From NCBI GenBank assembly GCA_964390545.1, contig CAYMJV010000001.1, forward strand, positions 30,282 through 94,281: a DNA stretch of 64,000 nucleotides, read 5' to 3'. The position numbers and the translations under genes are program-made. Position 1 is the first letter of the stretch; each line of letters begins with the position of its first letter. The DNA comes from an uncultured Syntrophaceae bacterium (GTDB lineage Bacteria; Desulfobacterota; BSN033; UBA1163). The notes below the pieces were generated by a model, which was not told the origin of the DNA, made no database searches, and saw only the letters and a program-made list of their open reading frames with translations. Positions 5,245-24,363 of this stretch are shown piece after piece.

Positions 5245-5245
5245 T

Positions 5246-6624: not shown

Positions 6625-6649
6625 GGCCCGGCTGAAAGGGGAGGGGAAG

Positions 6650-9666: not shown

Positions 9667-10635
9667 TCACAGATGGCAGGCCACATAATGGCCATTTCCA
9701 ATGTCGGTTAATGGAGGGATGGTTTCCTCACATTCCTTCTTTCGGTGTGGGCAACGGGTGTGAAAATGACAACCCGGAGGAGGACGCATAGGGCTCGGGA
9801 CATCTCCTTCCAGGATGATCCTCTTCTTGGTGATGTTGGGATCGGGCACAGGAATCGCAGAAAGGAGCGCCACCGTATAGGGATGGACAGGTGAGGTGTA
9901 GAGCTCTTTGTCTCTTGCGAGCTCCACAATTCTCCCCAGGTACATCACTGCAATCCGATCACAGATATGTTCTACAACAGCAAGATCATGGGCAATGATG
10001 ATATAAGAAAGTTTGAATTCCTTCTGGATATCCTCCAAGAGGTTGATCACCTGGGCTTGGATCGAGACATCGAGAGCGGACACAGGTTCATCCCCGATGA
10101 TCAGTTTCGGGTTGAGAGCAAGGGCCCTGGCAATTCCAATCCTCTGTCTCTGACCACCGCTGAACTCATGGGGGTAACGTCGGGCGTGCTCGGGGCTGAG
10201 ACCGACTTTCTGGAGAAGATAGGCAATGCGTTCCTTCCTCTCTTTCTTGCCGGCAATGTTGAAGACATCCAAGGGCTCTCCGATAATCTGCTCCACTGTT
10301 CTCCGGGGGTCGAGTGAAGCATAAGGGTCCTGAAAAACAATCTGCATATCTCTCCGGATCGAACGCATCTCCTTGTGGTCAAGTTTGCAGACATCCTTCC
10401 CTTCGAAGAGTATTTCTCCCTCGGTAGGCTCAATCAACCTCAAAATGGCTCGGGCAGTGGTCGACTTTCCGCAACCGCTTTCTCCCACTAATCCAAAACT
10501 CTCTCCTTCGTTGAGAAAGAAGTTTACTCCATCCACGGCATAGACATAGCCAATGGCCTTGGAGAAGATTCCTCCCTTGATAGGGAAGTACTTCTTAAGA
10601 TTTCTTACTTCAAGTAAAGGTTCTGTCATCATCAA
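9667..10635 (-). CDS. Oligopeptide/dipeptide-type ABC transporter ATP-binding protein (OppF/DppF-like)
   Basis: Walker [18 protein letters not shown] signature and an Opp-type C-terminal Cys-rich extension. Confidence 0.85.
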   Translation of the reverse strand: MMMTEPLLEVRNLKKYFPIKGGIFSKAIGYVYAVDGVNFFLNEGESFGLVGESGCGKSTTARAILRLIEPTEGEILFEGKDVCKLDHKEMRSIRRDMQIVFQDPYASLDPRRTVEQIIGEPLDVFNIAGKKERKERIAYLLQKVGLSPEHARRYPHEFSGGQRQRIGIARALALNPKLIIGDEPVSALDVSIQAQVINLLEDIQKEFKLSYIIIAHDLAVVEHICDRIAVMYLGRIVELARDKELYTSPVHPYTVALLSAIPVPDPNITKKRIILEGDVPSPMRPPPGCHFHTRCPHRKKECEETIPPLTDIGNGHYVACHL

Positions 10636-10672
10636 TTATCAATGGTCAATGATCAATGGTCATTGGTAAATG

Positions 10673-11665
10673 TTAAGTTTTGAGCTCTGTGAGCCAGCAA
10701 GAGCTGAAATGACCTGTTTCGATTTCTTTGAGCTGAGGCTCTTTCTCTTTGCAGATGTCCATCACGGAGGGGCATCTTGTTGAAAATTTACAACCTGAAG
10801 GAAGTTCGTAGAGACCGGGAACGACCCCTGGTATCTCATTCAAGCGAACTTTTCCACGACGGATCTTATCCCCTAAAATTGGGATGGATTTGAGCAGACC
10901 CATAGTGTAGGGATGTTGGGGGTTTCCAAAAAGGGTTTTCGTCTCTGCCTCTTCCACAATCTTACCTGCATACATGACGATGACCCGTTTTACCGTCTCT
11001 GCGATCACCCCTAAGTTGTGTGTGATGAGGATGATGGCCATTCCCAGTTCCTCTTTCAGTTTGTTCATCAGGTCGAGAATCTGAGCCTGAATGGTTACAT
11101 CCAGCGCCGTCGTCGGTTCATCAGCAATCAGGATCTCCGGATTACAAGCAAGGGCCATGGCGATCATCACCCTCTGTCTCATCCCGCCGCTCAACTCATG
11201 GGGGTAACGCTCCACGCATCTCTCTGGGGAGGCAATATTGACCAGTCTAAGCATCTCGATACTTTTTTCGAGGGCCTCTTTCTTAGATAAGCCCTGATGC
11301 AATCGGAAAGTCTCCTGAATTTGATTTCCGACTGTAAAGACGGGATTGAGGGAGGTCATGGGTTCCTGGAAGATCATCGAAATTCGATTTCCCCGAATCT
11401 TTCTCATCTCATCCTCTGAAAGTTCCAAGAGATTTCTCCCTTTAAACAGAATTTCCCCACCCACGACTTTACCTGGAGGAACTGGGATGAGGCGAAGGAT
11501 CGACAGAGCCGTGACGCTCTTCCCACATCCGGATTCCCCCACCACACCTAAAGGTTCCCCTTTAGCCAGTTGGTAGCTAATACCATCAACGGCCTTTGCA
11601 ACGCCTTCATAGGTGAAGAAGTAGGTCTTCAGATCCTTAATTTCAAGAATGGCCTGGTCATTCAT
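10673..11665 (-). CDS. Oligopeptide/dipeptide-type ABC transporter ATP-binding protein (OppD/DppD-like)
   Basis: Walker [18 protein letters not shown] signature and an Opp C-terminal domain. The start is ambiguous; an alternative ATG lies at 11701. Confidence 0.8.
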
Positions 11666-11724
11666 GCCAAACGAATTCCCCTTCCAGAAATGCGGTTTCA
11701 AAATAGTCTAAGTTTCGCCGATTT

Positions 11725-13752
11725 TCAAATGTTATTTTCTCGCGATGTTTGGGATAGGCCATCTGAATACATCCTGGGATTTCCCATCCCCTGGGCGATG
11801 ATCACTTTCTCAATGAAGATGGAATCTCCCCCAGGGGTAGTAGCCCAGCTCTCTTTCTCGTCGAAGAAGACTTCCACTTCTTCAGCCCCCGCCTCCTTTG
11901 CTTTTTGGAGAGTAATTTCGCGAAGACGCTTCTTCCCTTCCTCGGTTGCCTCTCCAAGATCATTGTAGAAGGCCATCCTTGAGGAGGGGTAGAGGCGAAA
12001 TCCTCTCTCGAAGGGTTTGATGAGGAGTTCTTCTTTGATGACGATGGCACTCGTAATGGCGCCTACCGCATTGGCGACCCCGGCATAAAATGGAATCACT
12101 GCCTGAGTGCCCAGCTTCTCAGCCACAGAAGGAAGAAAGGCATGGGCAGGCGCTCCAATCCCGATGATCTTATCTCTGAGGTTCACTTTAAACTGAATGC
12201 CCTCGATCGATGCTCCCCGGCGAAAAGATTGGTCTAAGAAAAGGCGGGAGAACTCGCATTCATCCAATCCCTTTTTTGAGTCGATCGATTCGGACAGAAT
12301 GAGTTCAAGGATCTGAAGGCCCATGGTCCGATCCATGGTCTCTTCCAATTTCTGAATGAGGGTGGAAAGTTCAACCCTCGATCGATCACAGAGAATACGG
12401 ATTCCCCGCTCCGCAGCCTCTCTGTCCCAGGCCTGGAAAATCCCTGTTACGTGGAGGATGTCAGTTGGAGTAAGTCCACTCTTCTGAATCAGGTTACGCC
12501 TTTCTAAATAGGAGACTCTCCTCTGCACTTCGGCCGGGGACCGACCTGTTGGTCTAAATAGTTGAAACAGGGAGAGGGGTTTATCCGTCACCTCTGAAAG
12601 GATCTCCTCTGTGAGGTGATCCAGTCCATTTTCTGTCCTTCTTCCTATCCGAATCCAAAACTCCGCATCATTTCTCCAAGAAGGAAGGCTTCGGTCCTCA
12701 TAAATCCGTATCAATTCTTCATGAATGTTTGCATGACAGTACCCTAAATAAGAAAGAGGAATGACCCTCTTCGGTCCGACCCGCAGATCCCCTCCGTCAT
12801 CAATCGTGATCTGGCTGTCCCCTCCAAGGGCAATGGTCCGCATATCGATCGCAATGACGTTTGTCTGCCAGTTCCCAACCCTTGCCCCCTTTGGATTAAG
12901 CCGAGGAAGTCCACCTCTGAGCAGGGCGATATCCGTGGTCGTCCCTCCGATATCCGTAATCACTGCATTCTGAGTTTCTCCAGATTGCTCCAGTAAGTAT
13001 TTGGCTCCAATCACACTTGCAGCAGGTCCCGATAGGATCGTCTCAATAGGTCGATCCTGGATAACAGATTCGCTCATCAGGCTTCCATCTCCCTTCACGA
13101 TCATCAGAGGTGCAGCGATGTTCTCTCTTCGAAATTCGCGTTTCACAGAATCAATCAATTGATGGATGATGGGGATGAGATGGGCATTGAGGATGGCAGT
13201 GGTGGCCCGTTTGACGGCATCCAATTGGAGGGAGATTTCGTGGCCACAGACAACCGGTTTCCCTATCTTCTCTTGAATGAGACGCTTTACACGAAGTTCA
13301 TGATCTGGATTCCGAACGCTGAAATAGCCGCAGACGGCATAAGCCTCGATTTCGTCTTTTGTCTTGTGCAAGACTGCTTTCACCCGATCAAGATCCAACG
13401 GTTCCTTCTCTTCACCCTGCACGGTATGTCCCCCAGGGATTAAAACAACTTCTTCTTTCAGCCCGGACGGGCATTCATCAGGCCCATAGCCGATGAGGAT
13501 ACCACAGACTCTGCGCCTCACCCCCTCTACGATGGAGTTGGTAGCTAAAGTGGTAGATAGGGAAACCAACGAAATCTTGGGGAAGTAGATTCTGTCCAAA
13601 CGTTTAAGAACATCATCGATACCCTTAGAGAGATCATCTTTGGTGGTAGGTGCCTTTGCAAAGGAGAGAACTTTTCTCTCACTGAGATCAATGAGAACTG
13701 CATCAGTATTGGTTCCTCCAACATCGATGCCCAGCCCGATATTTGAACTCAT
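11725..13752 (-). CDS. Hydantoinase/oxoprolinase-family (HyuA-like, ASKHA fold) protein
   Basis: N-terminus LGIDVGGTNTDAVLID is the hydantoinase_A N-terminal motif, and the 675 aa length fits A-type subunits. No B-subunit gene is adjacent. Confidence 0.75.
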   Translation of the reverse strand: MSSNIGLGIDVGGTNTDAVLIDLSERKVLSFAKAPTTKDDLSKGIDDVLKRLDRIYFPKISLVSLSTTLATNSIVEGVRRRVCGILIGYGPDECPSGLKEEVVLIPGGHTVQGEEKEPLDLDRVKAVLHKTKDEIEAYAVCGYFSVRNPDHELRVKRLIQEKIGKPVVCGHEISLQLDAVKRATTAILNAHLIPIIHQLIDSVKREFRRENIAAPLMIVKGDGSLMSESVIQDRPIETILSGPAASVIGAKYLLEQSGETQNAVITDIGGTTTDIALLRGGLPRLNPKGARVGNWQTNVIAIDMRTIALGGDSQITIDDGGDLRVGPKRVIPLSYLGYCHANIHEELIRIYEDRSLPSWRNDAEFWIRIGRRTENGLDHLTEEILSEVTDKPLSLFQLFRPTGRSPAEVQRRVSYLERRNLIQKSGLTPTDILHVTGIFQAWDREAAERGIRILCDRSRVELSTLIQKLEETMDRTMGLQILELILSESIDSKKGLDECEFSRLFLDQSFRRGASIEGIQFKVNLRDKIIGIGAPAHAFLPSVAEKLGTQAVIPFYAGVANAVGAITSAIVIKEELLIKPFERGFRLYPSSRMAFYNDLGEATEEGKKRLREITLQKAKEAGAEEVEVFFDEKESWATTPGGDSIFIEKVIIAQGMGNPRMYSDGLSQTSRENNI

Positions 13753-13862
13753 TTCGAAGACTCCAGCAAAAAAGATAGCGACATAACGAAATTACATCTC
13801 TATAGGCAACTCTTTTCTCTATCGATGGGATAGGATATCTAGTCCAACAGGGAAGATTCTAT

Positions 13863-14501
13863 CTACCCCCGACCAATCAATTCCCGGGCCTTTTCCACAG
13901 CACTTGCCGCCTCTGGGGCATAAGCATCTGCCCCGACATCCTTAGCAAATTTCTCAGTCACAGGTGCTCCTCCCACCATCACTTTCACCCTGCCTCGAAC
14001 CCCTGCCTCAACGAGAGATTCAATGACTTCCTTCATCTTCGGCATCGTTGTCGTCAGAAGGGAGGAGAGGCCCAAGATGTTCGGTCGATTCATTTTCACT
14101 GCCTCAACAAATCTCTCTGAAGGAACATCAATTCCCAGATCGATTACCTGAAATCCCGCTCCTTCCATCAACATTCCCACTAAATTCTTGCCAATATCAT
14201 GAAGATCCCCTTTGACGGCACCCAGAACAATCTTCCCGGCAAGCTTTACCCCTGTCTCAATCAATTTCGGACGCAATATATCCATTCCGGCCTGCATCGC
14301 CCTAGCCGAGATCAGGACCTCCGGCATGAAGAATTCATCTCTGCGAAATTTCTCTCCGACCACATCCATTCCGGCAACAAGTCCATTGCTCAGAATCTTT
14401 GACGGGGGAACATTCGCATTCAGTGCTTCCTGGACCAATTTGGGCATTTCCTGGTAATTTCCTTTCTGAAGCTCTTCAGAGATCTTTTGCAGCAGTTCCA
14501 T
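13863..14501 (-). CDS. Cobalamin-binding corrinoid protein (MtmC/MttC/MtgC-like)
   Basis: B12-binding DxHxxG motif (GDLHDIGKN) with the C-terminal Rossmann-like B12 domain. A preceding helical cap domain is present. RBS AAAGGAGAGG lies before the ATG at 14501. Confidence 0.8.
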   Translation of the reverse strand: MELLQKISEELQKGNYQEMPKLVQEALNANVPPSKILSNGLVAGMDVVGEKFRRDEFFMPEVLISARAMQAGMDILRPKLIETGVKLAGKIVLGAVKGDLHDIGKNLVGMLMEGAGFQVIDLGIDVPSERFVEAVKMNRPNILGLSSLLTTTMPKMKEVIESLVEAGVRGRVKVMVGGAPVTEKFAKDVGADAYAPEAASAVEKARELIGRG

Positions 14502-14607
14502 CTCTTCCTCTCCTTTTCGCATTAGATTGTATTACCCTGGATCCTTGATTATTGAGACCACTACGCTCCTGAACACTATAGGCAGAGCATAACAAATCTT
14601 ATTAACA

Positions 14608-16044
14608 CTACGGTCTTATTTCCGGAAACATCTTCTTCAACTGATCATTTAACTCTTTCGGTAGGCCCAACGGCTTGTGATCCCTGAGGATCGCCTTGGC
14701 GATCGCTCTGGCCTTTTCCTCCACAGAGGCTCTTCCCGATTTCTCCCAATTGACCCTTAGTTGCCGGTCGCTCAATTTAGGGGTAAAGTGTTCCCTGCGC
14801 ATCCATTGTACCGTGTGATGATCACACAGAAAATTTCCACCGGGACCCACTCTACGGTAAGCATCCAGAGCAATGGTCTCTTCCGAAACTTCAATCCCTC
14901 GGACAGCTCTCATGACCATCCCTATGATCTCGTCATCGATTACATACTGTTTATAGCTGGCAGTGCTTGCAAACTCCACCAATCCAGCCGCATCATGGAT
15001 GAAATTGGAACCCGAGAGGGCCACCAGCACATTGGTGATCGCTTTTTCATAGCCATTTTGGGTATCTACGATCTTGGAGTCAGACATTCCAGCCGTCGTA
15101 TAATTAGGCAGATTCACATACTGGGCCATGGCGGCTGCCCCTGCATTAATTAATCCCATTTCCACCGATCCGCTCACATAGCCCATCGTCTTTAAATCCG
15201 TGGAGGTGGCTGTGCAGGCATAGAGGACCGGGGTACCAGGGTTAACCAGTTGCGTGAGCACAACGCCACTTAAAGTCTCAGCATGGAGACCGGTGAGAAG
15301 GCCTGCGATCGTCACCGGTGCGGTTGCACCCGTCAGAGGCTCTGCTGGAATGGCAACGGGCATCCCAGCCCGAGCAATGTGACAGAGGATATCGCCATAG
15401 AGATCATCAATCTTAAGAGGGCTGACCACACAGGTGATGAACGAGATGAACGGCCTCTCCCTTAAGGCTTTGGGGCTTCCTGCAATGATCTCCCCCATCT
15501 TGATGATATCGAGAGTTCCTTTAAGCGTGTAGATCCCTCCCATGAGGTGTTTTGAGCAGTTCAGGATCGATGAGTGAAATCGATTGATGTCCACCTCCTG
15601 AGGCGGAAGCTCATTGGGATAAACGGGAAGAACCATAAAATGGATATTTTCCAAGGCATCACACAAGCGTGCAATATCCCGCACATCCTTCAAAAGGGTT
15701 GGACGTTTCTCATTGGTTTCGAGATCGATCACATTCAGGACCGTCCCTCCTGTTCCGAGATAGACATTCTTTCCTTCACAATAGAGGTCATGCTTCTCTT
15801 CCCTGCCACAAAGGACAACTTTCTTTGGTGCTTTATCGATTGTATCCTCGACCATTGATCTCGATAATTTAACGAGTTTCTTTGAAGTGTCGCATCCCGC
15901 CCCATGTTTCTGAAACGCTTCGAAAGCTAACTTGCTATGAACTTCCACCCCAATTTCCGAGAGAAGGGTAAGGGCAGATTCGTGAATTTTGCGAATGCCT
16001 TCATTCGTCAGAGGTCGGTATTGACCACCAGCGATCGGTTTCAT
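14608..16044 (-). CDS. MttB-superfamily methyltransferase (non-pyrrolysine; substrate:corrinoid methyltransferase), copy 1
   Basis: MttB-family blocks (YLGTGG, DLETNEKRP, LCDALENIHF). Uninterrupted ORF with no in-frame TAG. RBS AAAGGAG lies before the ATG at 16044. Confidence 0.8.
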   Translation of the reverse strand: MKPIAGGQYRPLTNEGIRKIHESALTLLSEIGVEVHSKLAFEAFQKHGAGCDTSKKLVKLSRSMVEDTIDKAPKKVVLCGREEKHDLYCEGKNVYLGTGGTVLNVIDLETNEKRPTLLKDVRDIARLCDALENIHFMVLPVYPNELPPQEVDINRFHSSILNCSKHLMGGIYTLKGTLDIIKMGEIIAGSPKALRERPFISFITCVVSPLKIDDLYGDILCHIARAGMPVAIPAEPLTGATAPVTIAGLLTGLHAETLSGVVLTQLVNPGTPVLYACTATSTDLKTMGYVSGSVEMGLINAGAAAMAQYVNLPNYTTAGMSDSKIVDTQNGYEKAITNVLVALSGSNFIHDAAGLVEFASTASYKQYVIDDEIIGMVMRAVRGIEVSEETIALDAYRRVGPGGNFLCDHHTVQWMRREHFTPKLSDRQLRVNWEKSGRASVEEKARAIAKAILRDHKPLGLPKELNDQLKKMFPEIRP

Positions 16045-16108
16045 TTTTTCTCCTTTCTTTTTGTGCACCCCTAATGCCGAAGAGAATCCTCTTGATGGGT
16101 CTCTTCTC

Positions 16109-17545
16109 TTAGAGCCGTATATCAAACCGCTTCCGGATCTCCTGGTCGGTTTCTACATCAAGTCCTTTGGGCAAGTGGGTTTTAAGTATTTCCCTCGCCT
16201 TCCTTCGGGCCCTTTCGCGACCGTCAAGAGATCCTGAATTTTCCCAGGTCTCCCTAGTCTGACGGTCTCCGAGCGTTTGTCGAAAATATTCCTGTCTCAT
16301 AAATTTGATAGTATGCATGGAAGAAAGGAAGTTCCCAGAAGGTCCCACTTCTCGAAGGGCCTCCAATCCCAAGGTCTCGCTGTCAATCTGGATCCCTTTG
16401 AGGAGACGGAGGGCCATCCCGATGATCTCATCGTCAATCACAAACTGCTCGTAAGCAACCGCTCTCATTGATTCCAACATACCGGCGGCATGGTGAATGT
16501 AATTTGAGCCTGCCAATACACAGAGGCAGACCGAGTACGCCTTCTCATAACCTGCCTGGATATCAGGGAGCTTCGATTCGGTAAGGCCAGCGGAATTATA
16601 ATTGGGAACTTGAATCGATTGAGCCATTTGAGAGATTGCTGCATTCATCAATCCAAACTCGATGCCTCCTCCCACATAACCCATTGTTTTTAAATCGGCC
16701 ATGGAAGGGATGGCACCATAGAGAACCGGAGAACCAGGGTTCGCCAGTTGTGTAAAAACGATTCCAGACAGTTGTTCAGCATGCACCTGAGCTAACGTCC
16801 CGGCCAATGTGACTGGAGAGGTTGAACCTGCCATAGGAGCTGAAGAGAGAGCTACCGGGATCTTATTTCTTATAATTTCTAGTAAGACTCGGGTTGTTTC
16901 TGTCGCAAAATGTAAAGGGCTGATCATCCAACTTGTGACAAAGGAGATAATCGGTCTCTTCACTAAGGCCTCTTTCCCTCCTGCGATCATCTGGGCCATT
17001 TCGATCACATCTCTGGCTGTTTGAACAGATTGGGCAGCTGCCATGACATGTTTGGTCGTATTAGAAAGGGAGGCATAAAACTGGTTGATGTCCATCACCT
17101 CTTTAGGAATGTCCTGAGGAATACAGGGTCGAAGGTAGAAATGGACGTTCTCCAATGCATCGACAAGCTTTGCAAGCTGTCCGATATCTTTTAACACTCC
17201 GGGCCTTGCCTTTCCTGTTCCCAAATCGAGGATAGTCAACGCAGCCCCCCCTGTTCCCAAATAGACCCTCTTATCTTCAAGGATCAGATCATTCTTTTCT
17301 TCTTGACCTGCCATCAAGAATTTGTGAGGAACAAGTTTCAGGCCCTCTTCAACAAGTGATGCCGGGATGCGAACGATCACTCCTTCGATCTTTGCCCCAT
17401 GTTTCTTAAAAACCTGCAGGGCTTCTTCTAACTCCACCTTGACCCCAATCTCTTCAAGAATTTTGAGAGACGTTTGATGAATTTTATTAACGTCTTGTTC
17501 GTTTAAAGGCCTAAACTGTCCTCCCACTAACGCTTTCACATTCAT
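16109..17545 (-). CDS. MttB-superfamily methyltransferase (non-pyrrolysine), copy 2 (paralogue of copy 1)
   Basis: Same blocks as copy 1 (YLGTGGAALTILDLGTGKARP; LVDALENVHF). The two copies are about 45% identical by eye. No in-frame TAG. Confidence 0.8.
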   Translation of the reverse strand: MNVKALVGGQFRPLNEQDVNKIHQTSLKILEEIGVKVELEEALQVFKKHGAKIEGVIVRIPASLVEEGLKLVPHKFLMAGQEEKNDLILEDKRVYLGTGGAALTILDLGTGKARPGVLKDIGQLAKLVDALENVHFYLRPCIPQDIPKEVMDINQFYASLSNTTKHVMAAAQSVQTARDVIEMAQMIAGGKEALVKRPIISFVTSWMISPLHFATETTRVLLEIIRNKIPVALSSAPMAGSTSPVTLAGTLAQVHAEQLSGIVFTQLANPGSPVLYGAIPSMADLKTMGYVGGGIEFGLMNAAISQMAQSIQVPNYNSAGLTESKLPDIQAGYEKAYSVCLCVLAGSNYIHHAAGMLESMRAVAYEQFVIDDEIIGMALRLLKGIQIDSETLGLEALREVGPSGNFLSSMHTIKFMRQEYFRQTLGDRQTRETWENSGSLDGRERARRKAREILKTHLPKGLDVETDQEIRKRFDIRL

Positions 17546-17586
17546 CCTCCTGCAGATTTAATATGATAGACCATATCATATTTTTT

Positions 17587-18924
17587 CTATTTCAAAAATT
17601 TGATCAGATCTTTAATATGGTAATCTTCAAAATTCTTGACTATTCCAATTAACGTATGGATCTGTTTTTCGCTTAATATGTTCTTGGTAATGTTAATAAA
17701 CTTATCTTCTAATTCCTGCTCAGATAAAGGATAATCAAAATCCCCTCTGGCGGAAATCAAACCCGAATGATATTCCTTTCCCTGATTCGTAATCATCTCT
17801 ATTTCAGCCATGCACTGCTCAGGAAACCTCTTCTGTATCTTCGGATCCTCAATGAGGGAAATCTTCTTCATCAATTGAAGGATCTCTTTTTTATTAAAAT
17901 ATCTTTCTTCCAAATATTTGGGTATAAATTCTTTGTAAATGGCTGCAACAGCAACGGGATAGACAACATTATATTCTGCATTTTCTAAACTGGTTGGTGG
18001 TGTTGAATAAAGGCTTACAGCCTCAGAAATAGTTTTGACGTTGATGCTAGAGATTTCCTTATAAGTCAAATTTTCTTGCTCCATTATTTTCAATACGCCA
18101 TCAATGGCCGGGTGGGCCCATCTGCAGCAAGGATACCTCTTGAAATAAACCTTCATTATTTTATACTTTTTACCTAAGGTAAAAACATCTTTATTTCTTT
18201 TTGAATCCCCTAAAAGGCTGGGACTTCCCGTAAAACCTTTTTGAGCCAAGAAGGCAGCACTGGTTCCAACCATCGCTCCCCAGGCTATTCCATCTTTCGG
18301 TGCCATAGCAGGATGTTCTACGGCTCGAATCTCAGGGACAAGCGGGGCATAAGCCTCGGCAATGCCAAGGGCATTCTTCGTCTCCAATTCAGAAAGACCT
18401 AACAATTTTGCAGCCCCTGCAGCTGAACCGATGGCACCCCAAGAGCCTGAGCCATGATAAAAGCCATAATGGGAGTGCAAAATTTCACCGGCCCGAATCC
18501 CAATTTCATAACCGAGGATTAAGGCCTCAAGTAGCTGTTTCCCAGTGGCTCCTATCTTTTCTGAAACGGCTAAGATCGTAGGGAAAACAGCGGTTCCTGG
18601 ATGCCCTTTCACTTTCCGGTAACCATCATCAATGTCCAGGGCATTGGCGATAAATCCATTAATTAAAGAGGCCGCAACACAGGATAATTTTTTATTAGCC
18701 CTAATGATTGTGGCTTCTCTTGAACCGTTCACCTCTCGAGAAGAAAAATCGGACAAAATCTTTGCGCCTTTAACTTCAGCTCCTGCTAAACTCGCACCCA
18801 CTAAATCTAATAGGCATATTTTTGCTTGTCTTAATATTTTTGGTGGAACATCTCTAAATTTCAGAGTATGAATGAATTTTACTGCATATTCATTGCCATC
18901 CATTTTTTTACAAAACACCTCCAT
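17587..18924 (-). CDS. MmgE/PrpD-family protein (2-methylcitrate dehydratase superfamily)
   Basis: Length of about 445 aa and PrpD-type N-terminal helical-domain motifs. An alternative start lies at 18903. Confidence 0.65.
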   Translation of the reverse strand: MEVFCKKMDGNEYAVKFIHTLKFRDVPPKILRQAKICLLDLVGASLAGAEVKGAKILSDFSSREVNGSREATIIRANKKLSCVAASLINGFIANALDIDDGYRKVKGHPGTAVFPTILAVSEKIGATGKQLLEALILGYEIGIRAGEILHSHYGFYHGSGSWGAIGSAAGAAKLLGLSELETKNALGIAEAYAPLVPEIRAVEHPAMAPKDGIAWGAMVGTSAAFLAQKGFTGSPSLLGDSKRNKDVFTLGKKYKIMKVYFKRYPCCRWAHPAIDGVLKIMEQENLTYKEISSINVKTISEAVSLYSTPPTSLENAEYNVVYPVAVAAIYKEFIPKYLEERYFNKKEILQLMKKISLIEDPKIQKRFPEQCMAEIEMITNQGKEYHSGLISARGDFDYPLSEQELEDKFINITKNILSEKQIHTLIGIVKNFEDYHIKDLIKFLK

Positions 18925-18984
18925 TTTAAGAATTAGCTTTTCTCCGTGCTGTAGAAATATTGATGGTCCTCAAATCCCTGCAAT

Positions 18985-19839
18985 TTAGGCTCCTCGAAGT
19001 TTAGGATCAGTAATATCACGAATCCCATCTCCAAGCATGTTAAAAGAGAGGATGGTGATGAGAATACTTAACCCTGAAAAAATAGAGATCCAGGGAGCAT
19101 TGATGAGCACATCCACACCCTCCCGAGTCATATTTCCCCAAGTCGGCGTAGGCGGTTGAACGCCTAATCCGATAAATGCCAGATTGGCCTCGAGTCGAAT
19201 GGCTTCCCCTACCCAAAGTGTACTGGCAACAAACAGGTCACCAAAGATATTGGGGAATATATGGTAGACAAGAATCCTGGGTGTGCCTGCCCCTACGGCT
19301 TTGGCGGCAACCACATATTCGCTTTCTTTCAGCGATAAGATAATTCCATGAGCTAAGCGGGCGAACCTTGGAACCATGACAATGCCGATCGTAATAATCA
19401 GGTTTAAAAGATTAGCCCCCAAGGCAGCCGTCACAGCGATCGCTAGGATGAGATCAGGAAAACACATGACGACATCAATTGATCTCATGATCAGGCTCTC
19501 TGGTTTTCCGCCATAATAGCCGGCGATCATGCCCATCATCGTTCCCAGCAGCATCCCCAGTAGAACGGAAGCACTCCCGATCAGAAGTGATACCCGGCTG
19601 CCCCAAATAATTCTTGAAAGAACATCTCGACCAAAATCATCCGTCCCTAACCAGTGTTCAGAACTGCTCCCGGCCAAACGATAAAAAGGATCCTGTTTCA
19701 AGGGATCGAATGGTGAAATCCAGGGAGCCAAAATGGCAACAGAAATGATGCATAGAGCAATGACACCACCGGCGAGAGCAGTTTTATTCCTTGAAAAAGT
19801 GAACCATAACCTTTGACTTTGAGAGATCTCTTTCGTCAT
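18985..19839 (-). CDS. ABC transporter permease, OppC/DppC-like
   Basis: Close paralogue of the 1734..2582 product (WLGTDDFGRDVLSRIIWGSR). Confidence 0.85.
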   Translation of the reverse strand: MTKEISQSQRLWFTFSRNKTALAGGVIALCIISVAILAPWISPFDPLKQDPFYRLAGSSSEHWLGTDDFGRDVLSRIIWGSRVSLLIGSASVLLGMLLGTMMGMIAGYYGGKPESLIMRSIDVVMCFPDLILAIAVTAALGANLLNLIITIGIVMVPRFARLAHGIILSLKESEYVVAAKAVGAGTPRILVYHIFPNIFGDLFVASTLWVGEAIRLEANLAFIGLGVQPPTPTWGNMTREGVDVLINAPWISIFSGLSILITILSFNMLGDGIRDITDPKLRGA

Positions 19840-19869
19840 TCCTTGCTCTTCGGCTGAATTCCTATATGG

Positions 19870-20811
19870 CTAACGATACTGAATTCGAGGATCGATTAAA
19901 CCGTAGATCAAGTCTGTCATCAGGTTCAAGATCACAACAATCACCGAATAAAACACCATGACCGATTGAAGGGTTGTATAATCTCTCTGTTTGATGGTCC
20001 CCACCATGAGGCTCCCTAAACCCGGTCTGGAAAAGACAATTTCAGTCATTACGGATGAACCGATGAGCACCACAGCATAAACCCCTCCAAGGGCAACAAT
20101 CGGAATCAGCGCATTGCGTAAGGCATGCTTGAAAAGGACCACCTGTTCTGAGATCCCTTTTGACCGGGCGGTACGGATGTAATCTTCCCGCAGGATATTC
20201 AGTAGAGAAGACCGGGTCATTCGAGTGACGTAGGCCGTCATAATTAACCCGAGGGAGAGGGCTGGCAGAAAAAGATGACGGAGGTTACTCGATAGACTCG
20301 AAAGATCGCCTCCTCCCACGACGGGAAAAAGTCTGAATTTAATCGAGAAGACCAACATCAAAAGAATCCCTAAATAAAAAGCGGGAATCGAAAGACCTGT
20401 CAATGAAAATATTCGATTGAAATAATCAATAAAACTATTCCTTCGAACTGCCGCTGGGATCCCTAAAGGAATTCCAAAAAGAAACCCGAGCAATATGGCG
20501 CTAAAGGTCAATTCCAAGGTATAAGGAAGGACTTTTAGGAGTTGAGTACCCACTGGGTAACCAGTAATGATGGAAGTCCCGAGTTTCCCCTGGCAGAGGT
20601 TACCAAGAAATCGGAGGTATTGAAGCCAAAGCGGCGCATTGAGCCCCATCTTTTCTCGGAGGGCATTCACAGTCTCCTTGCTTGCATAATCTCCAAGGGC
20701 TGCCACCGCAGGATCACCGGGTAGTACTCGTACAACAATAAAAACCAAAGTTAAAACAACAAGAAGAATGGGAATGCTTTGGAGGATTCTACGGACTACA
20801 TAATTAAACAT
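19870..20811 (-). CDS. ABC transporter permease, OppB/DppB-like
   Basis: Paralogue of the 784..1725 product (VLPGDPAVAALGDYASKE). Confidence 0.85.
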   Translation of the reverse strand: MFNYVVRRILQSIPILLVVLTLVFIVVRVLPGDPAVAALGDYASKETVNALREKMGLNAPLWLQYLRFLGNLCQGKLGTSIITGYPVGTQLLKVLPYTLELTFSAILLGFLFGIPLGIPAAVRRNSFIDYFNRIFSLTGLSIPAFYLGILLMLVFSIKFRLFPVVGGGDLSSLSSNLRHLFLPALSLGLIMTAYVTRMTRSSLLNILREDYIRTARSKGISEQVVLFKHALRNALIPIVALGGVYAVVLIGSSVMTEIVFSRPGLGSLMVGTIKQRDYTTLQSVMVFYSVIVVILNLMTDLIYGLIDPRIQYR

Positions 20812-20911
20812 AAATTGAATGCCCTAAGAGAAACTCACCCCATCCCTGAAAGGAAAAGGGATGGGGTGAGTGGAAATGAAGTAGAAGGGATCAAATCTTT
20901 AGATCCTTATA

Positions 20912-22531
20912 TTATTTGGCCAAAATTCTCGTTTTTTCTGTGATTTGAGAAGAATAAGTTTCCCAACTCCACTCAAGCGGATGCCCCAAGTCTACGTAAG
21001 ACTTCATTGGAAAATTATACATTAAACGAATAATCGGCACAGTCGCAACATCTCTAAGAACTTTAATCTGGGCTTCTTTCCAGAGGGCATTCTGCTTCGC
21101 AGAATTAAGTTCCCACCTTGCCTTTTCGATAAGGTCATCAATACCAGCATAATGAGAAAAATTCGTATCAGGTTTTTTACCCGTTACGACGGTTGACTCG
21201 GAATAATAGAAACGGGTAAGAAAAACATCCACATTAGGTCGCCAGGCCGCATAATAGACGATTGGACTCGCATCTTGACGGATTAAGCTGTGGAAGGAAG
21301 AATGGTCGACGACTTTCAACTCCATATCAATTCCAACCTTTTTAAGTTGGGCCTGGATCGCAATCATTGGTTTTCTGTAACTACTCTCCATTTCGCTAAT
21401 AATGACTTCTGTTTTAAAGCCGTTGGGGTAGCCGGCTTCAGCCAGAAGTTTTTTTGCTTCCCCTATATTGTTTTCGTAGACCACCCCTGCCTTAAGCGCA
21501 TCTTCTTTGGTTAAAGCACCAGGAGAAGGGGGAGCTAGCGCCGCAGAATAAATCGGGGCGGCTAAACTTTTTCCCATAAAAGCAGCCACTTCCTCGCGGG
21601 AAATGGCATAAGAAACTGCTTTTCGAACTTTCACATCGTCAAAGGGTTTCTTTGTCATGTTGAAATAGAGCATTTGTGTTTCACAAGGACCGAAACCTTT
21701 GATGGTCACATCCTGAAAGGTCCCGACCTTTTCTACCCACTTCTCCTCTTTTAGCCCCTCGATGATTTGTAACTCCCCTGTCTGAAGTCCGAATTCTCGG
21801 GAACTGACACTGGCCATATATCGAATGACGAGTTGTTTTATAATGGGAGCCCCTCTAAAATATTTATTATTCGCCACAAGAGCTGTCTTCTGCCGGGGTT
21901 CATAGGACTCAAACATGAATGGACCTGTTCCAACTGGATGGGTTTTTGCCCACTCGTCACCCTTTTCTTCAATTGCTTTCTTGGAAACAATAAATCCACC
22001 AGCATAGTTGGCAACCTTGGCTAAAAAAAGGGTTTCGGAGATCGGCCTCTCTATCGTAATTTTAACTGTATAGGGATCAACCGCTTCAAAGTCCATTCCA
22101 ACATATTCACCAGCATAGGATGAACGCTTCGGATCAGCAGCACGTTTCAAGGAATAAACAACGTCTCCAGAAGTCAGTTCATGTCCATTTGGATAACCTG
22201 GAAATGGATGAAAATAGACTCCCTTCCGAAGAGCAAAGGTCCAGACTTTACCATCTTTTGAAACTTTCCATGATTTAGCCAAATCTGGCTCAACTTTTAC
22301 TTGACTCCCAGGAGGATATCGAACAAGACCATTAAAAATCGGATCAACAGTACTTCGATCGACTGTTGTAGCTGATCGATGAGGATCAAGCGTTTGGACA
22401 TCTCCAGCATCAAAAGCAATATTTATTACTTGCTCTTTTGCTAACTTTTCAGCAGCTCCTACACCAATAACGTTGATGAATCCGACCATGAAAATAGCTG
22501 TCATTAAAAAAAGAAAAATTCTCTTTCTCAT
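20912..22531 (-). CDS. ABC transporter substrate-binding protein, family 5 (OppA/DppA/NikA-like), secreted
   Basis: Signal peptide plus the SBP_bac_5 signature. Its C-terminal half is homologous to the partial SBP at 1..711. RBS AAAGGAGGAGG lies before the ATG at 22531. Confidence 0.85.
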   Translation of the reverse strand: MRKRIFLFLMTAIFMVGFINVIGVGAAEKLAKEQVINIAFDAGDVQTLDPHRSATTVDRSTVDPIFNGLVRYPPGSQVKVEPDLAKSWKVSKDGKVWTFALRKGVYFHPFPGYPNGHELTSGDVVYSLKRAADPKRSSYAGEYVGMDFEAVDPYTVKITIERPISETLFLAKVANYAGGFIVSKKAIEEKGDEWAKTHPVGTGPFMFESYEPRQKTALVANNKYFRGAPIIKQLVIRYMASVSSREFGLQTGELQIIEGLKEEKWVEKVGTFQDVTIKGFGPCETQMLYFNMTKKPFDDVKVRKAVSYAISREEVAAFMGKSLAAPIYSAALAPPSPGALTKEDALKAGVVYENNIGEAKKLLAEAGYPNGFKTEVIISEMESSYRKPMIAIQAQLKKVGIDMELKVVDHSSFHSLIRQDASPIVYYAAWRPNVDVFLTRFYYSESTVVTGKKPDTNFSHYAGIDDLIEKARWELNSAKQNALWKEAQIKVLRDVATVPIIRLMYNFPMKSYVDLGHPLEWSWETYSSQITEKTRILAK

Positions 22532-22752
22532 TTTTCCTCCTCCTTTCGAAAGATAAAGTTCCCCCTCCAATTTTTCAGCACCCATCCCTTAGAAAGCCCT
22601 TCATGAAGCCTTTCAACGATTATACCTTAATGAAGGTGAATTACAAATGAAACAGATCACGAAGTTTAGTAATCCGTTGAAGGCGTAATCCCCCCGTCCC
22701 CTATAGAGGAGATCGCGCCCAACAGAATTGAACTCGTCAAAATCTGCCTCCA

Positions 22753-23652
22753 TCATTTGATGAGATTCAAACTCTTTAGGAAATCACGGGCCACTTCCTC
22801 TGCTGGCTGCTTCTTACCATCGACTGTATAGTTTAAAGTAGCCATCGTTATATCACTGATTTTCCCAGCCAACTTGTTTAGGATATCGGCCACTTGAGGA
22901 CCCTTAGCAAGGAGATCATCTCTAACGACTGGGGCAGCATAATAGGGAGGAAAGAACTTAAGATCATCCTCCAAGACAACTAAGTTGAATGCCGGGATAC
23001 GGCCATCGGTTGCGAACCCCGAGATCACATCCACTTGATTTTCTGCGATCGCCTTATAGACCAGTCCAGGGTCCATTCCCTTCTGGTCTTTAAATTTAAG
23101 GTCATAAAATTTTGTGAGCCCTGGGACTCCATCGGGTCTTGCCAAGAACTCAATGGTAGCTCCGAAGATGAGGTCTTTTGCATAGGGCTTCAAGTCAGAG
23201 ACCTTTTTAGCCTTCAGGCGATCTGCATCGGCTTTTCGCATCACGATGCAATAAGTATTGTTAAATCCCCAAGATTTCAGCCAAGTTAATTTAAACTTCT
23301 CCTCATACTCTTTTTTTACAATCTGGTAGGCCTCATCAGGATCTTTCACTGCCGGCTTTTTGAGAATGGCAGTTAGGCCGGTTCCGGTATACTCAACGTA
23401 GACATTGATATCTCCACGGACAATGGCCTCATGACATATGACTGTTCCTCCCAAACCTATCTTCCGGTCCACCTTGAAACCATTGTTCTCCATCAAAAGG
23501 GCTACCATATTTCCTACTATGGTCTGTTCTGTAAAGCCTTTTGATCCAACAATGATCACGGGTTTCTCCTGTCCCTTTGCTTCCTGAAAAAAGGCAGGAA
23601 TCAAAGCCACAAATACCACTGCCATCACTAGAACCATTCCAATTCTTCTCAT
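22753..23652 (-). CDS. Glycine betaine/choline/proline-betaine-type ABC transporter substrate-binding protein (OpuAC/ProX-like)
   Basis: Signal peptide, and the OpuAC-fold family is recognisable (VGSKGFTEQTIVGNM...YTGTG). Confidence 0.75.
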   Translation of the reverse strand: MRRIGMVLVMAVVFVALIPAFFQEAKGQEKPVIIVGSKGFTEQTIVGNMVALLMENNGFKVDRKIGLGGTVICHEAIVRGDINVYVEYTGTGLTAILKKPAVKDPDEAYQIVKKEYEEKFKLTWLKSWGFNNTYCIVMRKADADRLKAKKVSDLKPYAKDLIFGATIEFLARPDGVPGLTKFYDLKFKDQKGMDPGLVYKAIAENQVDVISGFATDGRIPAFNLVVLEDDLKFFPPYYAAPVVRDDLLAKGPQVADILNKLAGKISDITMATLNYTVDGKKQPAEEVARDFLKSLNLIK

Positions 23653-23683
23653 TTTACTCCCTCCTTTTTGTAATCGAAAACAT

Positions 23684-24319: not shown

Positions 24320-24363
24320 TTCACCTCCTTTCGGATTTCAATGTTTTGTCCAACCCCTTAAGA

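What the first reader, a model, noticed from the sequence alone, without database searches (positions are those of the whole stretch)
9667..22585. Complete Opp/Dpp-like ABC transporter operon with a corrinoid methyltransferase module embedded between its permease and ATPase genes
Gene order on the minus strand is SBP(family 5), OppB-like, OppC-like, MmgE/PrpD-family, MttB-paralogue 2, MttB-paralogue 1, B12-binding corrinoid protein (DxHxxG), hydantoinase-A-family protein, OppD-like, OppF-like. Gaps are short throughout (from +61 nt to a 16-nt overlap), which is consistent with one transcript. Non-pyrrolysine MttB-superfamily members are, by established knowledge, substrate:corrinoid methyltransferases for quaternary amines (glycine betaine MtgB, proline betaine MtpB, carnitine MtcB, gamma-butyrobetaine MtyB). 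Described clusters normally carry a methylcobalamin:THF methyltransferase (MtgA/MtqA-type), a RamA-type Fe-S activase and BCCT or OpuA-type uptake. This cluster instead has an Opp/Dpp peptide/opine-type transporter wrapped around the module, two different MttB paralogues side by side, an ASKHA-fold hydantoinase_A protein with no B subunit, and an MmgE/PrpD protein, and it carries no MtgA or RamA homologue. The inference is a demethylation or catabolic system for an unidentified N-methylated, peptide-like or opine-like compound. The hydantoinase-like ATPase may stand in for the missing activase, but that is speculation.
Basis: partly seen in the sequence, partly recalled or inferred. Interest (0 to 1): 0.75.

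Follow-up and report, generated by a model that had tools for sequence, protein, structure and literature searches.

The report
Corrinoid demethylase module inside importer operon
A sediment bacterium carries a conserved ten-gene operon in which two previously unclassified vitamin-B12-dependent N-demethylases, their B12 carrier protein and two helper enzymes sit inside the genes of an opine-type nutrient importer, which points to an anaerobic breakdown route for a methylated compound that has not yet been identified.

Summary
The anatomy is real. Ten intact minus-strand genes (9667-22585) encode SBP5, OppB, OppC, MmgE/PrpD, two non-pyrrolysine MttB paralogues (46% identical), a DxHxxG corrinoid protein, a 675-aa hydantoinase-A-like ATPase, OppD and OppF. 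Two corrections apply. An OpuC/ProU-type betaine ABC transporter and an Octopine_DH-family gene lie immediately upstream in conserved synteny. The gaps are 23-110 nt, with no overlap. No MtgA or RACE/RamA gene is in the 64 kb. The gene set recurs in more than 15 metagenome contigs in three different gene orders. The PrpD-like enzyme is also linked to MttB+CoP+OpuC without Opp in two distant loci, one of them a Bacillota genome. Both MttBs form separate conserved clades that lack Arg312, which a 2026 study reports as conserved in the members of known function; they carry Tyr there, as the pyrrolysine TMA enzyme does. The SBP is 40% identical to MoaA, the Agrobacterium mannopinic-acid binder. 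The PrpD-like protein is closest to iminodisuccinate epimerase. The ATPase belongs to a widespread family next to corrinoid methyltransferase genes in 44 of 80 genomes. It has no Fe-S motif and sometimes co-occurs with RACE, so it is not a simple activase substitute. Verdict: a new variant of the MttB quaternary-amine system; the substrate is unknown.

The parts
20912..22585 (-). Family-5 solute-binding protein of the Opp-type importer. The likely start is Met19 at 22531, followed by a signal-peptide-like MRKRIFLFLMTA.
   Evidence: SBP_bac_5 8e-78. The best solved relative is MoaA (6TFQ/6TFS/6TFX) at E 1.3e-97, about 40% identity over residues 55-552. The chain is named MoaA in PMC7312458 Table 4. 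Plasmid homologues are mostly from Agrobacterium and Rhizobium.
19870..20811 (-). OppB/DppB-type permease
   Evidence: BPD_transp_1 1e-39 + BPD_transp_1_N. All NCBIfam matches fall below the equivalog cutoffs.
18985..19839 (-). OppC/DppC-type permease
   Evidence: BPD_transp_1 + OppC_N.
17587..18924 (-). MmgE/PrpD-family enzyme. The probable start is 18903, giving 438 aa.
   Evidence: MmgE_PrpD_N 2e-53 and MmgE_PrpD_C 8e-31. It scores far below the PrpD equivalog cutoffs. The best PDB matches are IDS epimerase 2HP0/2HP3 at 2e-30, then IRG1/CAD. Its subfamily is found with Opp, with MttB+OpuC, or with a GltS symporter.
16109..17545 (-). MttB-a, a non-Pyl MttB-superfamily methyltransferase of 478 aa. 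Its signature at the MtgB positions Y97/R312/Pyl/H348/F356 is G-Y-L-H-M.
   Evidence: MTTB 5e-121. It is 35% identical to MtgB and 33-34% to Pyl-MttB. The signature is conserved in 13 of 13 orthologues. The codon at the Pyl position is CTT.
14608..16044 (-). MttB-b, the second non-Pyl MttB paralogue of 478 aa. Its signature is G-Y-M-D-A.
   Evidence: MTTB 6e-106. It is 46% identical to MttB-a. The start is ATG 16044 with an AAGGAG site. The signature is conserved in 7 of 7 orthologues. The codon at the Pyl position is ATG.
13863..14522 (-). Cognate corrinoid protein with the DLHDIG motif
   Evidence: B12-binding_2 + B12-binding. The sequence is shown. The best NCBIfam match is MtgC_2 at 233 bits, below the 370-bit cutoff.
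11725..13752 (-). Hydantoinase-A/acetone-carboxylase-beta-like ASKHA ATPase of 675 aa with no B subunit. It belongs to a family that accompanies corrinoid methyltransferase genes.
10673..11701 (-). OppD/DppD-type ATPase. The probable start is Met13 at 11665.
   Evidence: ABC_tran + oligo_HPY. DppD/OppD are the best NCBIfam matches.
9667..10635 (-). OppF/DppF-type ATPase
   Evidence: ABC_tran + oligo_HPY. NF008453 scores 427.7 bits, above its 408-bit cutoff.
22619..22646 (-). Best sigma-70-like promoter match of the region (TTGTAA-16-TATAAT), in the gap between opuAC and the SBP gene. This is the candidate operon promoter.
   Evidence: with the sequence. The number of promoter-like sites in the region is not above the shuffled expectation, so only the position is suggestive.
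22753..26132 (-). Upstream syntenic OpuC/ProU-type betaine ABC transporter: OpuAC SBP 22753-23652, permeases 23684-24319 and 24364-25020, ATPase+CBS 24996-26132.
   Evidence: Pfam. TIGR01186 proV scores 380 bits against a 327-bit cutoff, and OsmF-like scores 156 bits. Synteny is conserved in L085-L088, L097, L098 and L100.
26313..27437 (-). Octopine_DH-family NAD(P) oxidoreductase, syntenic with the cluster in the closer relatives
   Evidence: Octopine_DH 9e-35. It is present in L085, L086, L088, L097 and L106.

Best explanation
The locus is an anaerobic uptake-and-demethylation system for one or two related N-methylated, probably acidic amino-acid-derived compounds (betaine-like and/or opine-like). 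It is a new variant of the non-pyrrolysine MttB / corrinoid-protein systems.

Proposed mechanism:
1. The substrate enters through the MoaA-like Opp-type importer and/or the adjacent OpuC-type betaine importer. This step is inferred.
2. MttB-a and MttB-b each transfer an N-methyl group to Co(I) of the shared corrinoid protein. The family assignment is shown. The substrates are unknown, and the binding mode must differ from MtgB.
3. Methyl-Co(III) is discharged to tetrahydrofolate by an MtgA-type MT2 encoded elsewhere. This is inferred, because MT2 is in cis in the relatives L090 and L103.
4. The PrpD/IDS-epimerase-like enzyme isomerises, dehydrates or epimerises the carboxylate skeleton before or after demethylation. 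The reaction type is inferred from the family.
5. The hydantoinase-A-like ASKHA ATPase is a general ATP-dependent maintenance factor of corrinoid methyltransferase systems, for example for cofactor loading, repair or conformational gating of the corrinoid protein. It is neither a substrate enzyme nor an electron-delivering activase. This is guilt by association and the least certain step.
For: - Domain identities are shown.
- Both MttBs are non-Pyl.
- The corrinoid protein has the DxHxxG motif.
- The whole 15-gene synteny is conserved down to 64-68% identity in L085-L087 and L097. The same gene set appears in other orders in L002/L111 and L089.
- PrpD-like is linked to MttB+CoP(+MtgA)+OpuC without Opp in L103 (40% identity). 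The same holds, without MtgA, in the Bacillota genome L114 (43% identity).
- PrpD-like sits directly behind a GltS glutamate-type symporter in L115.
- The SBP is 40% identical to the N-mannityl-glutamate binder MoaA.
- PrpD-like is closest to IDS epimerase.
- HydA-like has invariant ASKHA motifs. A corrinoid-MT partner lies within 2.5 kb, almost always on the same strand, in 44 of 80 species genomes.
- HydA-like is also found next to URO-D-type MT + CoP + CobW in Methanomassiliicoccus, with no MttB. The association is therefore independent of substrate type and of transporter type (BCCT, OpuC, Opp, AA permease).
- HydA was induced together with MttB, CoP and MT2 on glycine betaine in strain DCMF (PMC9768040).
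Against: - No substrate is identified.
- Both MttBs lack Arg312, which forms the salt bridge to the acidic group in MtgB and is reported as conserved in the MttB members of known function (PMC13080624). This sits awkwardly with an acidic substrate.
- Opp+PrpD units exist without MttB (L112, L113, L116). MttB-b-like+CoP+HydA units exist without Opp or PrpD (L003, L005). The operon could therefore be a fusion of two modules with separate substrates.
- About 30 of 84 HydA-like loci have no corrinoid gene within 10 kb.
- The HydA fold matches substrate-phosphorylating carboxylase and lactamase subunits over about 500 residues.
- Co-transcription is not shown.
Confidence: 0.6

Rival explanations
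1. The hydantoinase-A-like protein is a substrate enzyme. It uses ATP to phosphorylate or open a cyclic amide or lactam form of the substrate (as caprolactamase, oxoprolinase or N-methylhydantoinase do), or it activates a poorly leaving N-methyl donor, before MttB acts.
For: - Sequence matches to the same proteins.
- From memory, unverified: the Agrobacterium agropinic-acid lactam catabolic genes agaF/agaG are hydantoinase A/B-like and sit beside AgaA/MoaA-type SBP genes.
Against: - There is no Hydantoinase_B-type partner in the window or in the related clusters.
- Only the N-terminal half of the Hydantoinase_A profile matches.
- The family accompanies corrinoid systems with different substrate methyltransferases (MttB clades, URO-D type) and different transporters.
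- PrpD+MttB clusters work without it (L103, L114).
Confidence: 0.25
2. Two unrelated modules are merely fused. Opp+PrpD imports and processes a non-methylated opine- or peptide-like acid, while MttB-a/b+CoP+HydA demethylate a betaine delivered only by the upstream OpuC-type transporter.
For: - Stand-alone Opp+PrpD units occur in L112, L113 and L116.
- Stand-alone MttB+CoP+MtgA+HydA+RACo units occur in L003 and L005.
- In L002 and L111 the MttB block lies outside the opp genes.
- GC content steps from about 0.44 to about 0.49 at the MttB-a/MttB-b boundary.
Against: - The gene set stays together through three rearrangements at 53-93% identity.
- PrpD-like is linked to MttB+CoP+OpuC without Opp in L103 and L114. 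PrpD and MttB are therefore functionally tied.
- In the window the MttB block interrupts the opp operon with no convincing internal terminator.
Confidence: 0.2
3. It is an ordinary glycine-betaine (MtgB-type) demethylation cluster that uses unusual transporters.
For: - MtgB is the best solved match for both paralogues, at 304 and 265 bits.
- The OpuAC SBP is OsmF-like.
- HydA-containing clusters were induced by glycine betaine in strain DCMF.
Against: - Identity to MtgB is only 32-35%, about the same as to Pyl-MttB.
- One of four (MttB-a) and none of four (MttB-b) glycine-betaine-binding residues are kept. R312 is Tyr, and R312L abolishes MtgB activity.
- The two proteins form clades separate from the MtgB clade.
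Confidence: 0.1
4. The Opp-type system imports nickel/cobalt or an opine-type metallophore (Cnt-like, with the Octopine_DH protein as a CntM analogue) to supply cobalt for the corrinoid.
For: - The best NCBIfam match of the OppB-like permease is the Opp2B nickel permease at 317 bits.
- Weak CntA/C/D/F matches exist.
- An Octopine_DH-family gene is nearby.
Against: - All of these matches fall below their cutoffs (CntA 80 bits against 800).
- NikA-type structures match the SBP at 1e-20 to 1e-26, against 1e-97 for MoaA.
- There is no CntL or CntK homologue.
- PrpD-like also pairs with OpuC and GltS transporters.
Confidence: 0.05

Closest known systems
MtgB/MtgC/MtgA glycine betaine:THF methyl transfer system (Desulfitobacterium hafniense DSY3155-3157, Acetobacterium woodii) and the E. 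limosum MtpB/MtcB/MtyB/MthB systems
   Same: A non-Pyl MttB-superfamily MT1 works with a DxHxxG corrinoid protein, and a betaine-type transporter lies next door.
   Different: - There are two MttB paralogues from clades of their own.
- Arg312 and the aromatic pair are absent.
- No MT2 or RACE is encoded in cis.
- The module is embedded in an Opp-type operon together with a PrpD-like enzyme and a HydA-like ATPase.
'Architecture B' glycine-betaine clusters with HydA ('Ca. Formimonas warabiya' DCMF, Sporomusa ovata, 'Ca. Frackibacter'; PMC9768040)
   Same: MttB genes, a corrinoid protein and an N-methylhydantoinase-A-like gene are co-located, and in DCMF they are co-induced.
   Different: - Those clusters use BCCT/ProX transport and have no Opp or PrpD.
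- The MttBs found next to HydA in such Firmicute-type loci here carry other signatures (SFCDG/PFCDG) and form a different clade.
MoaA / AgaA mannityl-opine binding proteins and Opp-type opine importers of Agrobacterium
   Same: The family-5 SBP is about 40% identical to MoaA over the mature protein. It is part of a five-component Opp-type ABC system, and an Octopine_DH-family gene is nearby, as on an A. vitis plasmid.
   Different: - The host is an anaerobe.
- There are no opine-oxidase genes.
- Ligand-contact residues were not compared.
- The ligand need not be a sugar-opine.
Iminodisuccinate epimerase and cis-aconitate decarboxylase (MmgE/PrpD family)
   Same: It has the two-domain MmgE/PrpD fold, and IDS epimerase is the best solved match (2e-30).
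   Different: The relationship is distant. The catalytic residues and the reaction type were not tested. It is not a PrpD equivalog.
RACE/RamA reductive activases, and the GlmL/MutL, EutA and DdrA reactivases of B12 enzymes
   Same: It is an ASKHA-fold ATPase encoded beside a B12 protein, and its N-terminus gives a weak MutL/GlmL match (1e-10).
   Different: - It has no Fe-S domain, no RACo_C_ter match and no conserved Cys cluster.
- It co-occurs with RACo.
- Its overall fold is the hydantoinase-A / acetone-carboxylase-beta type.

Membership tests
MttB superfamily (PF06253), non-pyrrolysine branch | Full-length match to the MTTB profile | tested here: met
   5e-121 and 6e-106, covering profile positions 30-490 of 500.
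MttB superfamily (PF06253), non-pyrrolysine branch | A sense codon instead of UAG at the pyrrolysine position | tested here: met
   CTT (Leu321) and ATG (Met320) align to the UAG of Rfam PYLIS_3 and to X in the 7XCL chain.
MtgB-type glycine betaine methyltransferase | The glycine-betaine binding motif Y97, R312, H348, F356 (PMC13080624) | tested here: not met
   MttB-a has G, Y, H, M at these positions and MttB-b has G, Y, D, A.
Characterised acidic quaternary-amine MttB members (MtgB, MtpB, MtcB, MtyB, MthB) | Conserved Arg312 salt bridge, as reported in PMC13080624 | tested here: not met
   Tyr occupies this position in both paralogues and in all 20 orthologues. The MtpB, MtcB, MtyB and MthB sequences themselves were not available for a tree.
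Methyltransferase cognate corrinoid protein | B12-binding_2 cap plus a Rossmann B12-binding domain with DxHxxG | tested here: met
   Pfam 2.5e-19 and 2e-27. DLHDIG is present. TIGR02370 scores 210.1 bits against a 215.3-bit cutoff and MtgC_2 scores 233 against 370, so no equivalog assignment is made.
Canonical three-component methyl transfer cluster (MT1 + CoP + MT2, plus RACE) | A Pterin_bind MT2 (MtgA/MtqA) and a RACE/RamA activase encoded in cis | tested here: not met
   Neither is present in 64 kb. MT2 is in cis in the relatives L090 and L103, and RACo in L003 and L005.
Opp/Dpp (PepT-family) ABC importer | A family-5 SBP, two permeases (one with OppC_N) and two ATPases with oligo_HPY | tested here: met
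   All five components are intact.
MoaA-type opine importer | Binding of mannopinic acid or another opine | not testable with these tools
   Only 40% sequence identity to MoaA is shown. Ligand contacts were not compared.
2-methylcitrate dehydratase PrpD | Equivalog-level match to PrpD models | tested here: not met
   36-38 bits against cutoffs of 458-950. The two MmgE/PrpD domains themselves are present.
Hydantoinase/oxoprolinase/acetone carboxylase (HyuA/HyuB type) | An A subunit with the complete Hydantoinase_A domain, working with a Hydantoinase_B partner | tested here: not met
RACE / RamA reductive activase | A Fe-S cluster domain plus RACo_middle/RACo_C_ter | tested here: not met
   There are no such Pfam matches and no conserved Cys cluster in 15 homologues. 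The protein co-occurs with a true RACo.

The most novel reading that the evidence does not exclude
Two linked novelties remain possible.

(a) The 'G-Y' clade MttBs (Gly at MtgB Y97, Tyr at R312), together with the IDS-epimerase-like PrpD enzyme, define a previously unknown anaerobic pathway. It would act on an N-methylated glutamate- or aspartate-like or opine-like compound, that is, a substrate class outside the acidic trimethylammonium compounds known for the superfamily.

(b) The 670-aa hydantoinase-A-like protein is a new, Fe-S-free class of ATP-dependent corrinoid-protein maintenance factor. It would be shared by bacterial MttB systems and by the methyltransferase systems of Methanomassiliicoccales.
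Probability: 0.3. Interest if true: 0.8.

Novelty: new variant of a known kind. Interest (0 to 1): 0.58.

Why it matters
The MttB superfamily is large, and only a handful of its members have a known substrate (TMA, glycine betaine, proline betaine, carnitine, gamma-butyrobetaine, choline).

This locus supplies several handles at once:
- two conserved MttB clades with a distinct active-site signature
- two candidate binding proteins that can be used to fish for the ligand
- a co-evolving PrpD-like enzyme that constrains the chemistry

It therefore turns the question of what these MttBs demethylate into an experiment that can be done. It also highlights a widespread ATPase that accompanies corrinoid methyltransferases in bacteria and in methanogenic archaea and still has no assigned function. 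That bears on anaerobic methyl-group cycling, and therefore on methane and TMA budgets.

Tried and rejected
- An exact-sequence look-up of the window's HydA-like protein found nothing on record. The source organism is therefore inferred only from 76-80% identical hits labelled Thermodesulfobacteriota or Deltaproteobacteria.
- A full-text search for '6TFQ' returned only unrelated papers. The MoaA identity of that PDB sequence came indirectly from Table 4 of PMC7312458, which lists 6TFX. The primary MoaA paper is not in the library.
- No paper describing MttB together with Opp or MmgE/PrpD was found.
- The sequences of MtpB, MtcB, MtyB and MthB could not be obtained. The tree has only MtgB and Pyl-MttB as characterised anchors.
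- Promoter and terminator scans were not above the shuffled expectation. Only the position of the best promoter-like site is suggestive.
- The Rfam PYLIS_3 matches were examined and rejected as evidence for pyrrolysine, because sense codons occupy the UAG position and several pairs are broken.
- Neighbours of HydA-like genes in alphaproteobacterial and Chloroflexota loci that lack corrinoid genes were unrelated housekeeping genes and gave no alternative functional lead.
- The flanks of L103 and L089 gave only weak hints: a GS-like protein, a CN_hydrolase and a SIS-domain giant protein.
- One Pfam call failed because of wrong coordinates.
- The nickel/cobalt or metallophore reading of the Opp system was considered and rated unlikely.

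Full report
**1. Observation**

The minus strand between 9667 and 22585 carries ten intact ORFs.
- a family-5 SBP
- an OppB-like and an OppC-like permease
- a two-domain MmgE/PrpD protein
- two MTTB proteins
- a B12-binding_2 + B12-binding corrinoid protein
- a Hydant_A_N + Hydantoinase_A protein
- two ABC_tran + oligo_HPY ATPases

E-values run from 1e-25 to 1e-121, so chance is not an issue. The corrinoid protein has DLHDIG.

The second MttB begins at ATG 16044, behind an AAGGAG site, not at the upstream TTG. It is 478 aa and lies 64 nt after the first MttB. The two paralogues are 46% identical. With likely start codons the gaps are 23-110 nt. Nothing overlaps.

Rfam reports PYLIS_3 inside both MttB genes. 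The codons aligned to the model's UAG are ATG and CTT, and the X of the M. barkeri MttB chain aligns to Met320. Both proteins are therefore non-pyrrolysine members, and the Rfam match reflects coding-sequence homology.

**2. Surroundings**

These are an OpuAC binding protein, two permeases and a ProV-type ATPase with a CBS domain (22753-26132). Next comes an Octopine_DH-family oxidoreductase (26313-27437).

The 167-nt gap between opuAC and the SBP ORF (221 nt to the likely SBP start at 22531) holds the best promoter-like site of the region, TTGTAA-16-TATAAT. The scan as a whole is not above chance.

The supercluster is bounded on one side by a hemL-like gene that runs divergently. On the other side lie a TPR gene and a cysteate racemase / D-cysteate sulfo-lyase pair that run convergently.

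No Pterin_bind MT2, RACo/RamA, DUF1638, BCCT or Hydantoinase_B gene is present anywhere in the 64 kb. The window also encodes LptD, a lipid A acyltransferase and rubrerythrin. The closest homologues are labelled Thermodesulfobacteriota or Deltaproteobacteria. A sediment Desulfobacterota-type anaerobe is therefore the likely host.

**3. Conservation of the arrangement**

A metagenome scan with the PrpD-like protein returned 23 loci. Mapping all window proteins onto them gave the following:
- The full order OctDH, OpuC (four genes), SBP5, OppB, OppC, PrpD, MttB-a, MttB-b, CoP, HydA, OppD, OppF is kept in L085-L087 and L097. PrpD identity falls to 64% and HydA identity to 68% across these loci.
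- In L002 and L111 (HydA 53-56%) the opp genes are contiguous with PrpD between the permeases and the ATPases. The block MttB-a, MttB-b, CoP, HydA follows them.
- In L089 the MttB/CoP block precedes the SBP.

The same gene set therefore survives three rearrangements. This argues for functional coupling and against a recent accidental insertion. L090 has a Pterin_bind MT2 directly upstream of the SBP.

**4. The PrpD-like enzyme is the hub**

More distant members of its subfamily occur in three contexts:
- with MttB + CoP + MtgA + an OpuC-type transporter and no Opp, in L103 at 40% identity
- with a sigma-54 regulator, MttB, CoP, a second MttB and an OpuC-type transporter, in a 3.5-Mb Bacillota genome, L114, at 43% identity
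- embedded in Opp operons without any MttB, in L112, L113 and L116, and directly behind a GltS-family glutamate symporter in L115

Its best solved relatives are iminodisuccinate epimerase (2e-30) and then IRG1/CAD. It scores far below the PrpD equivalog cutoffs.

By established knowledge, the family abstracts protons alpha to carboxylates in di- and tricarboxylates, giving dehydration, decarboxylation or epimerisation. Together with its transporter partners, this suggests an acidic, glutamate-like skeleton. That is an inference.

**5. The binding protein**

Its best solved relative by a wide margin is the chain of 6TFQ/6TFS/6TFX. The match is E 1.3e-97 at about 40% identity over residues 55-552, and the next best match is 4.5e-50. 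PMC7312458 lists 6TFX as MoaA of Rhizobium radiobacter. From my own knowledge, MoaA is the mannopinic-acid (N-mannityl-glutamate) binding protein.

Plasmid homologues are mainly on Agrobacterium and Rhizobium plasmids. On an A. vitis plasmid the SBP gene sits with opine-oxidase-like genes and an Octopine_DH-family gene. NikA-type and CntA-type matches are much weaker.

**6. The two MttBs**

Both match MtgB best among solved structures (304 and 265 bits) and match Pyl-MttB nearly as well (239 and 242 bits). Identity is 32-35% to either.

PMC13080624 defines the glycine-betaine site of MtgB as Y97, R312, H348 and F356. It shows that R312L abolishes activity. It also states that R312 is conserved among the superfamily members of known function, all of which act on acidic quaternary amines.

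The table gives the residues at these positions after mapping through ungapped, high-confidence alignment blocks and a 68-sequence MAFFT alignment.

| Protein | Y97, R312, Pyl position, H348, F356 | Conservation |
|---|---|---|
| MtgB | Y R L H F | reference |
| Pyl-MttB | G Y X - G | reference |
| MttB-a | G Y L H M | 13 of 13 orthologues |
| MttB-b | G Y M D A | 7 of 7 orthologues |

Tyr at the R312 position is shared with the TMA enzyme.

In a neighbour-joining tree the two paralogues are sister clades inside a 'G-Y' clade. That clade also holds the MttBs of L003, L005, L074 and L075; by signature and identity the two L114 MttBs belong with it as well. It is separate from the MtgB clade and from the large SFCDG/PFCDG clade that dominates HydA-linked Firmicute-type loci.

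They are therefore members of the superfamily but not MtgB orthologues. Their substrate-binding mode must differ from every characterised member.

One caveat applies. The absence of R312 does not by itself exclude betaines, because the HydA-linked clusters reported as induced by glycine betaine may also lack it. I could not check those sequences.

**7. The hydantoinase-A-like protein**

It belongs to a full-length family of about 670 aa. The family has invariant ASKHA phosphate and adenosine motifs (GxDxGGTxxD, DxGGTTxD, LGGDS, VxNAxGA) and no conserved cysteine cluster.

Neighbourhoods:

| Locus | Gene order around HydA |
|---|---|
| L001, L002 | MttB, CoP, HydA |
| L003 | MttB, CoP, MtgA, HydA, RACo, DUF1638 |
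| L004 | MttB, MttB, HydA, DUF1638, BCCT |

Among 80 species-representative genomes with 35-41% identical relatives, 44 have MttB, CoP, MtgA, RACo or DUF1638 within 2.5 kb, almost always on the same strand. Counting all 84 loci examined (these 80 plus L001-L004), 54 have one within 10 kb.

In Methanomassiliicoccus the partners are a URO-D-type methyltransferase, a corrinoid protein and CobW, with no MttB. About a third of the loci are stand-alone genes among unrelated neighbours.

Holland et al. 2022 (PMC9768040) had already noted a 'HydA' in glycine-betaine MttB clusters of strain DCMF, Sporomusa ovata and 'Ca. Frackibacter', and found it co-induced on glycine betaine. They proposed no function.

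The association follows the corrinoid machinery and not a particular substrate or transporter, and no B subunit is ever present. I therefore favour a role on the corrinoid protein, as an ATP-driven maintenance, loading or gating factor. The protein lacks Fe-S ligands and co-occurs with RACo, so it is not a drop-in replacement for the reductive activase. The substrate-enzyme alternative stays open at about one chance in four.

**8. Synthesis**

What is shown:
- the gene content
- the non-Pyl status of both MttBs
- conserved synteny through several rearrangements
- the PrpD-MttB linkage across phyla
- the distinct MttB signatures
- the similarity of the SBP to MoaA
- the statistics of the HydA association

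What is inferred:
- a single transcript starting from a promoter upstream of the SBP gene
- import by one or both ABC systems
- methyl transfer from substrate to CoP by the two MttBs
- discharge to THF by an MT2 encoded in trans
- processing of the skeleton by the PrpD-like enzyme, and perhaps by the Octopine_DH protein
- a CoP-directed role for the ATPase

The substrate is not identified. The best guess is an N-methylated acidic amino-acid derivative or opine-like compound, possibly with betaine and less-methylated forms entering through different transporters.

**9. Novelty and score**

The system is a new variant of a known kind. It is a non-Pyl MttB/corrinoid system with new MT1 clades, a new enzymatic partner and a new transporter context. 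It also contains an accessory ATPase that has been noticed before but not understood.

It is not categorically new, and a specialist would not be astonished. It is, however, a well-defined and conserved entry point to new MttB substrates. Interest 0.58.

Noticed in passing
window 14988-15087 (-) and 16486-16585 (-): Rfam PYLIS_3 (the pyrrolysine insertion sequence of mttB) matches above its gathering score inside both non-Pyl MttB genes, at 56.7 and 43.4 bits. The model's UAG aligns to ATG and CTT. The match therefore reflects coding homology and is not a recoding signal.
   Followed up: yes
window 3436-8594 (+): This is a cysteate utilisation cluster. It holds a polar amino-acid ABC transporter (SBP_bac_3, two permeases, an ATPase), cysteate racemase CuyB (237 bits against a 190-bit cutoff) and D-cysteate sulfo-lyase CuyA (546 bits against 450). 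It runs convergently to the operon under study.
   Followed up: partly
window 64-2582 (+): A second Opp-type system is cut by the window edge. It comprises the C-terminal part of a family-5 SBP, an OppB-like gene and an OppC-like gene.
   Followed up: no
window about 16000: GC content steps from about 0.44 (16-24 kb: MttB-a, PrpD, OppCB, SBP, OpuC) to about 0.49 (10-16 kb: MttB-b, CoP, HydA, OppDF). The step falls at the boundary between the two MttB paralogues and may be a trace of module fusion.
   Followed up: no
L033 3630-12010 (Methanomassiliicoccus sp. UBA345): Two tandem HydA-like genes lie next to a URO-D-type methyltransferase, a corrinoid protein, a CobW GTPase and an HTH_10 regulator, with no MttB. 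The HydA family therefore also accompanies archaeal methyltransferase systems.
   Followed up: partly
L115 7604-10332: A GltS-family glutamate symporter gene ends 3 nt before a 44%-identical PrpD-like gene. This hints at a glutamate-like substrate for this PrpD subfamily.
   Followed up: no
L109 (Agrobacterium vitis plasmid CP146241.1, 394889-414430): A 40%-identical SBP homologue lies with LysR, opine-oxidase-like FAD/2Fe-2S genes, ABC permeases and an Octopine_DH-family gene. This is the same SBP plus Octopine_DH pairing as in the window.
   Followed up: partly
L003 and L089: Glutamine-synthetase-like genes lie next to MttB clusters (L003 4595-5974, L089 151-1206), and a CN_hydrolase lies after the opp genes in L089. 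A possible link to gamma-glutamyl-amine chemistry is unexplained.
   Followed up: no
window 42997-43458 (+) and 50163-51284 (-): A GemA-like (phage Mu) protein and a DndB-like DNA-sulfur-modification-associated protein are encoded here. Both are unrelated to the finding.
   Followed up: no
window 30671-34297 (-) and 27465-28889 (+): Heme biosynthesis genes flank the cluster: an amine-oxidase-type protein that is probably protoporphyrinogen oxidase, ferrochelatase, uroporphyrinogen decarboxylase and a HemL-like aminomutase. The HemL-like gene and an isochorismatase/nicotinamidase gene also follow the HydA-like gene in the rearranged relative L110.
   Followed up: no
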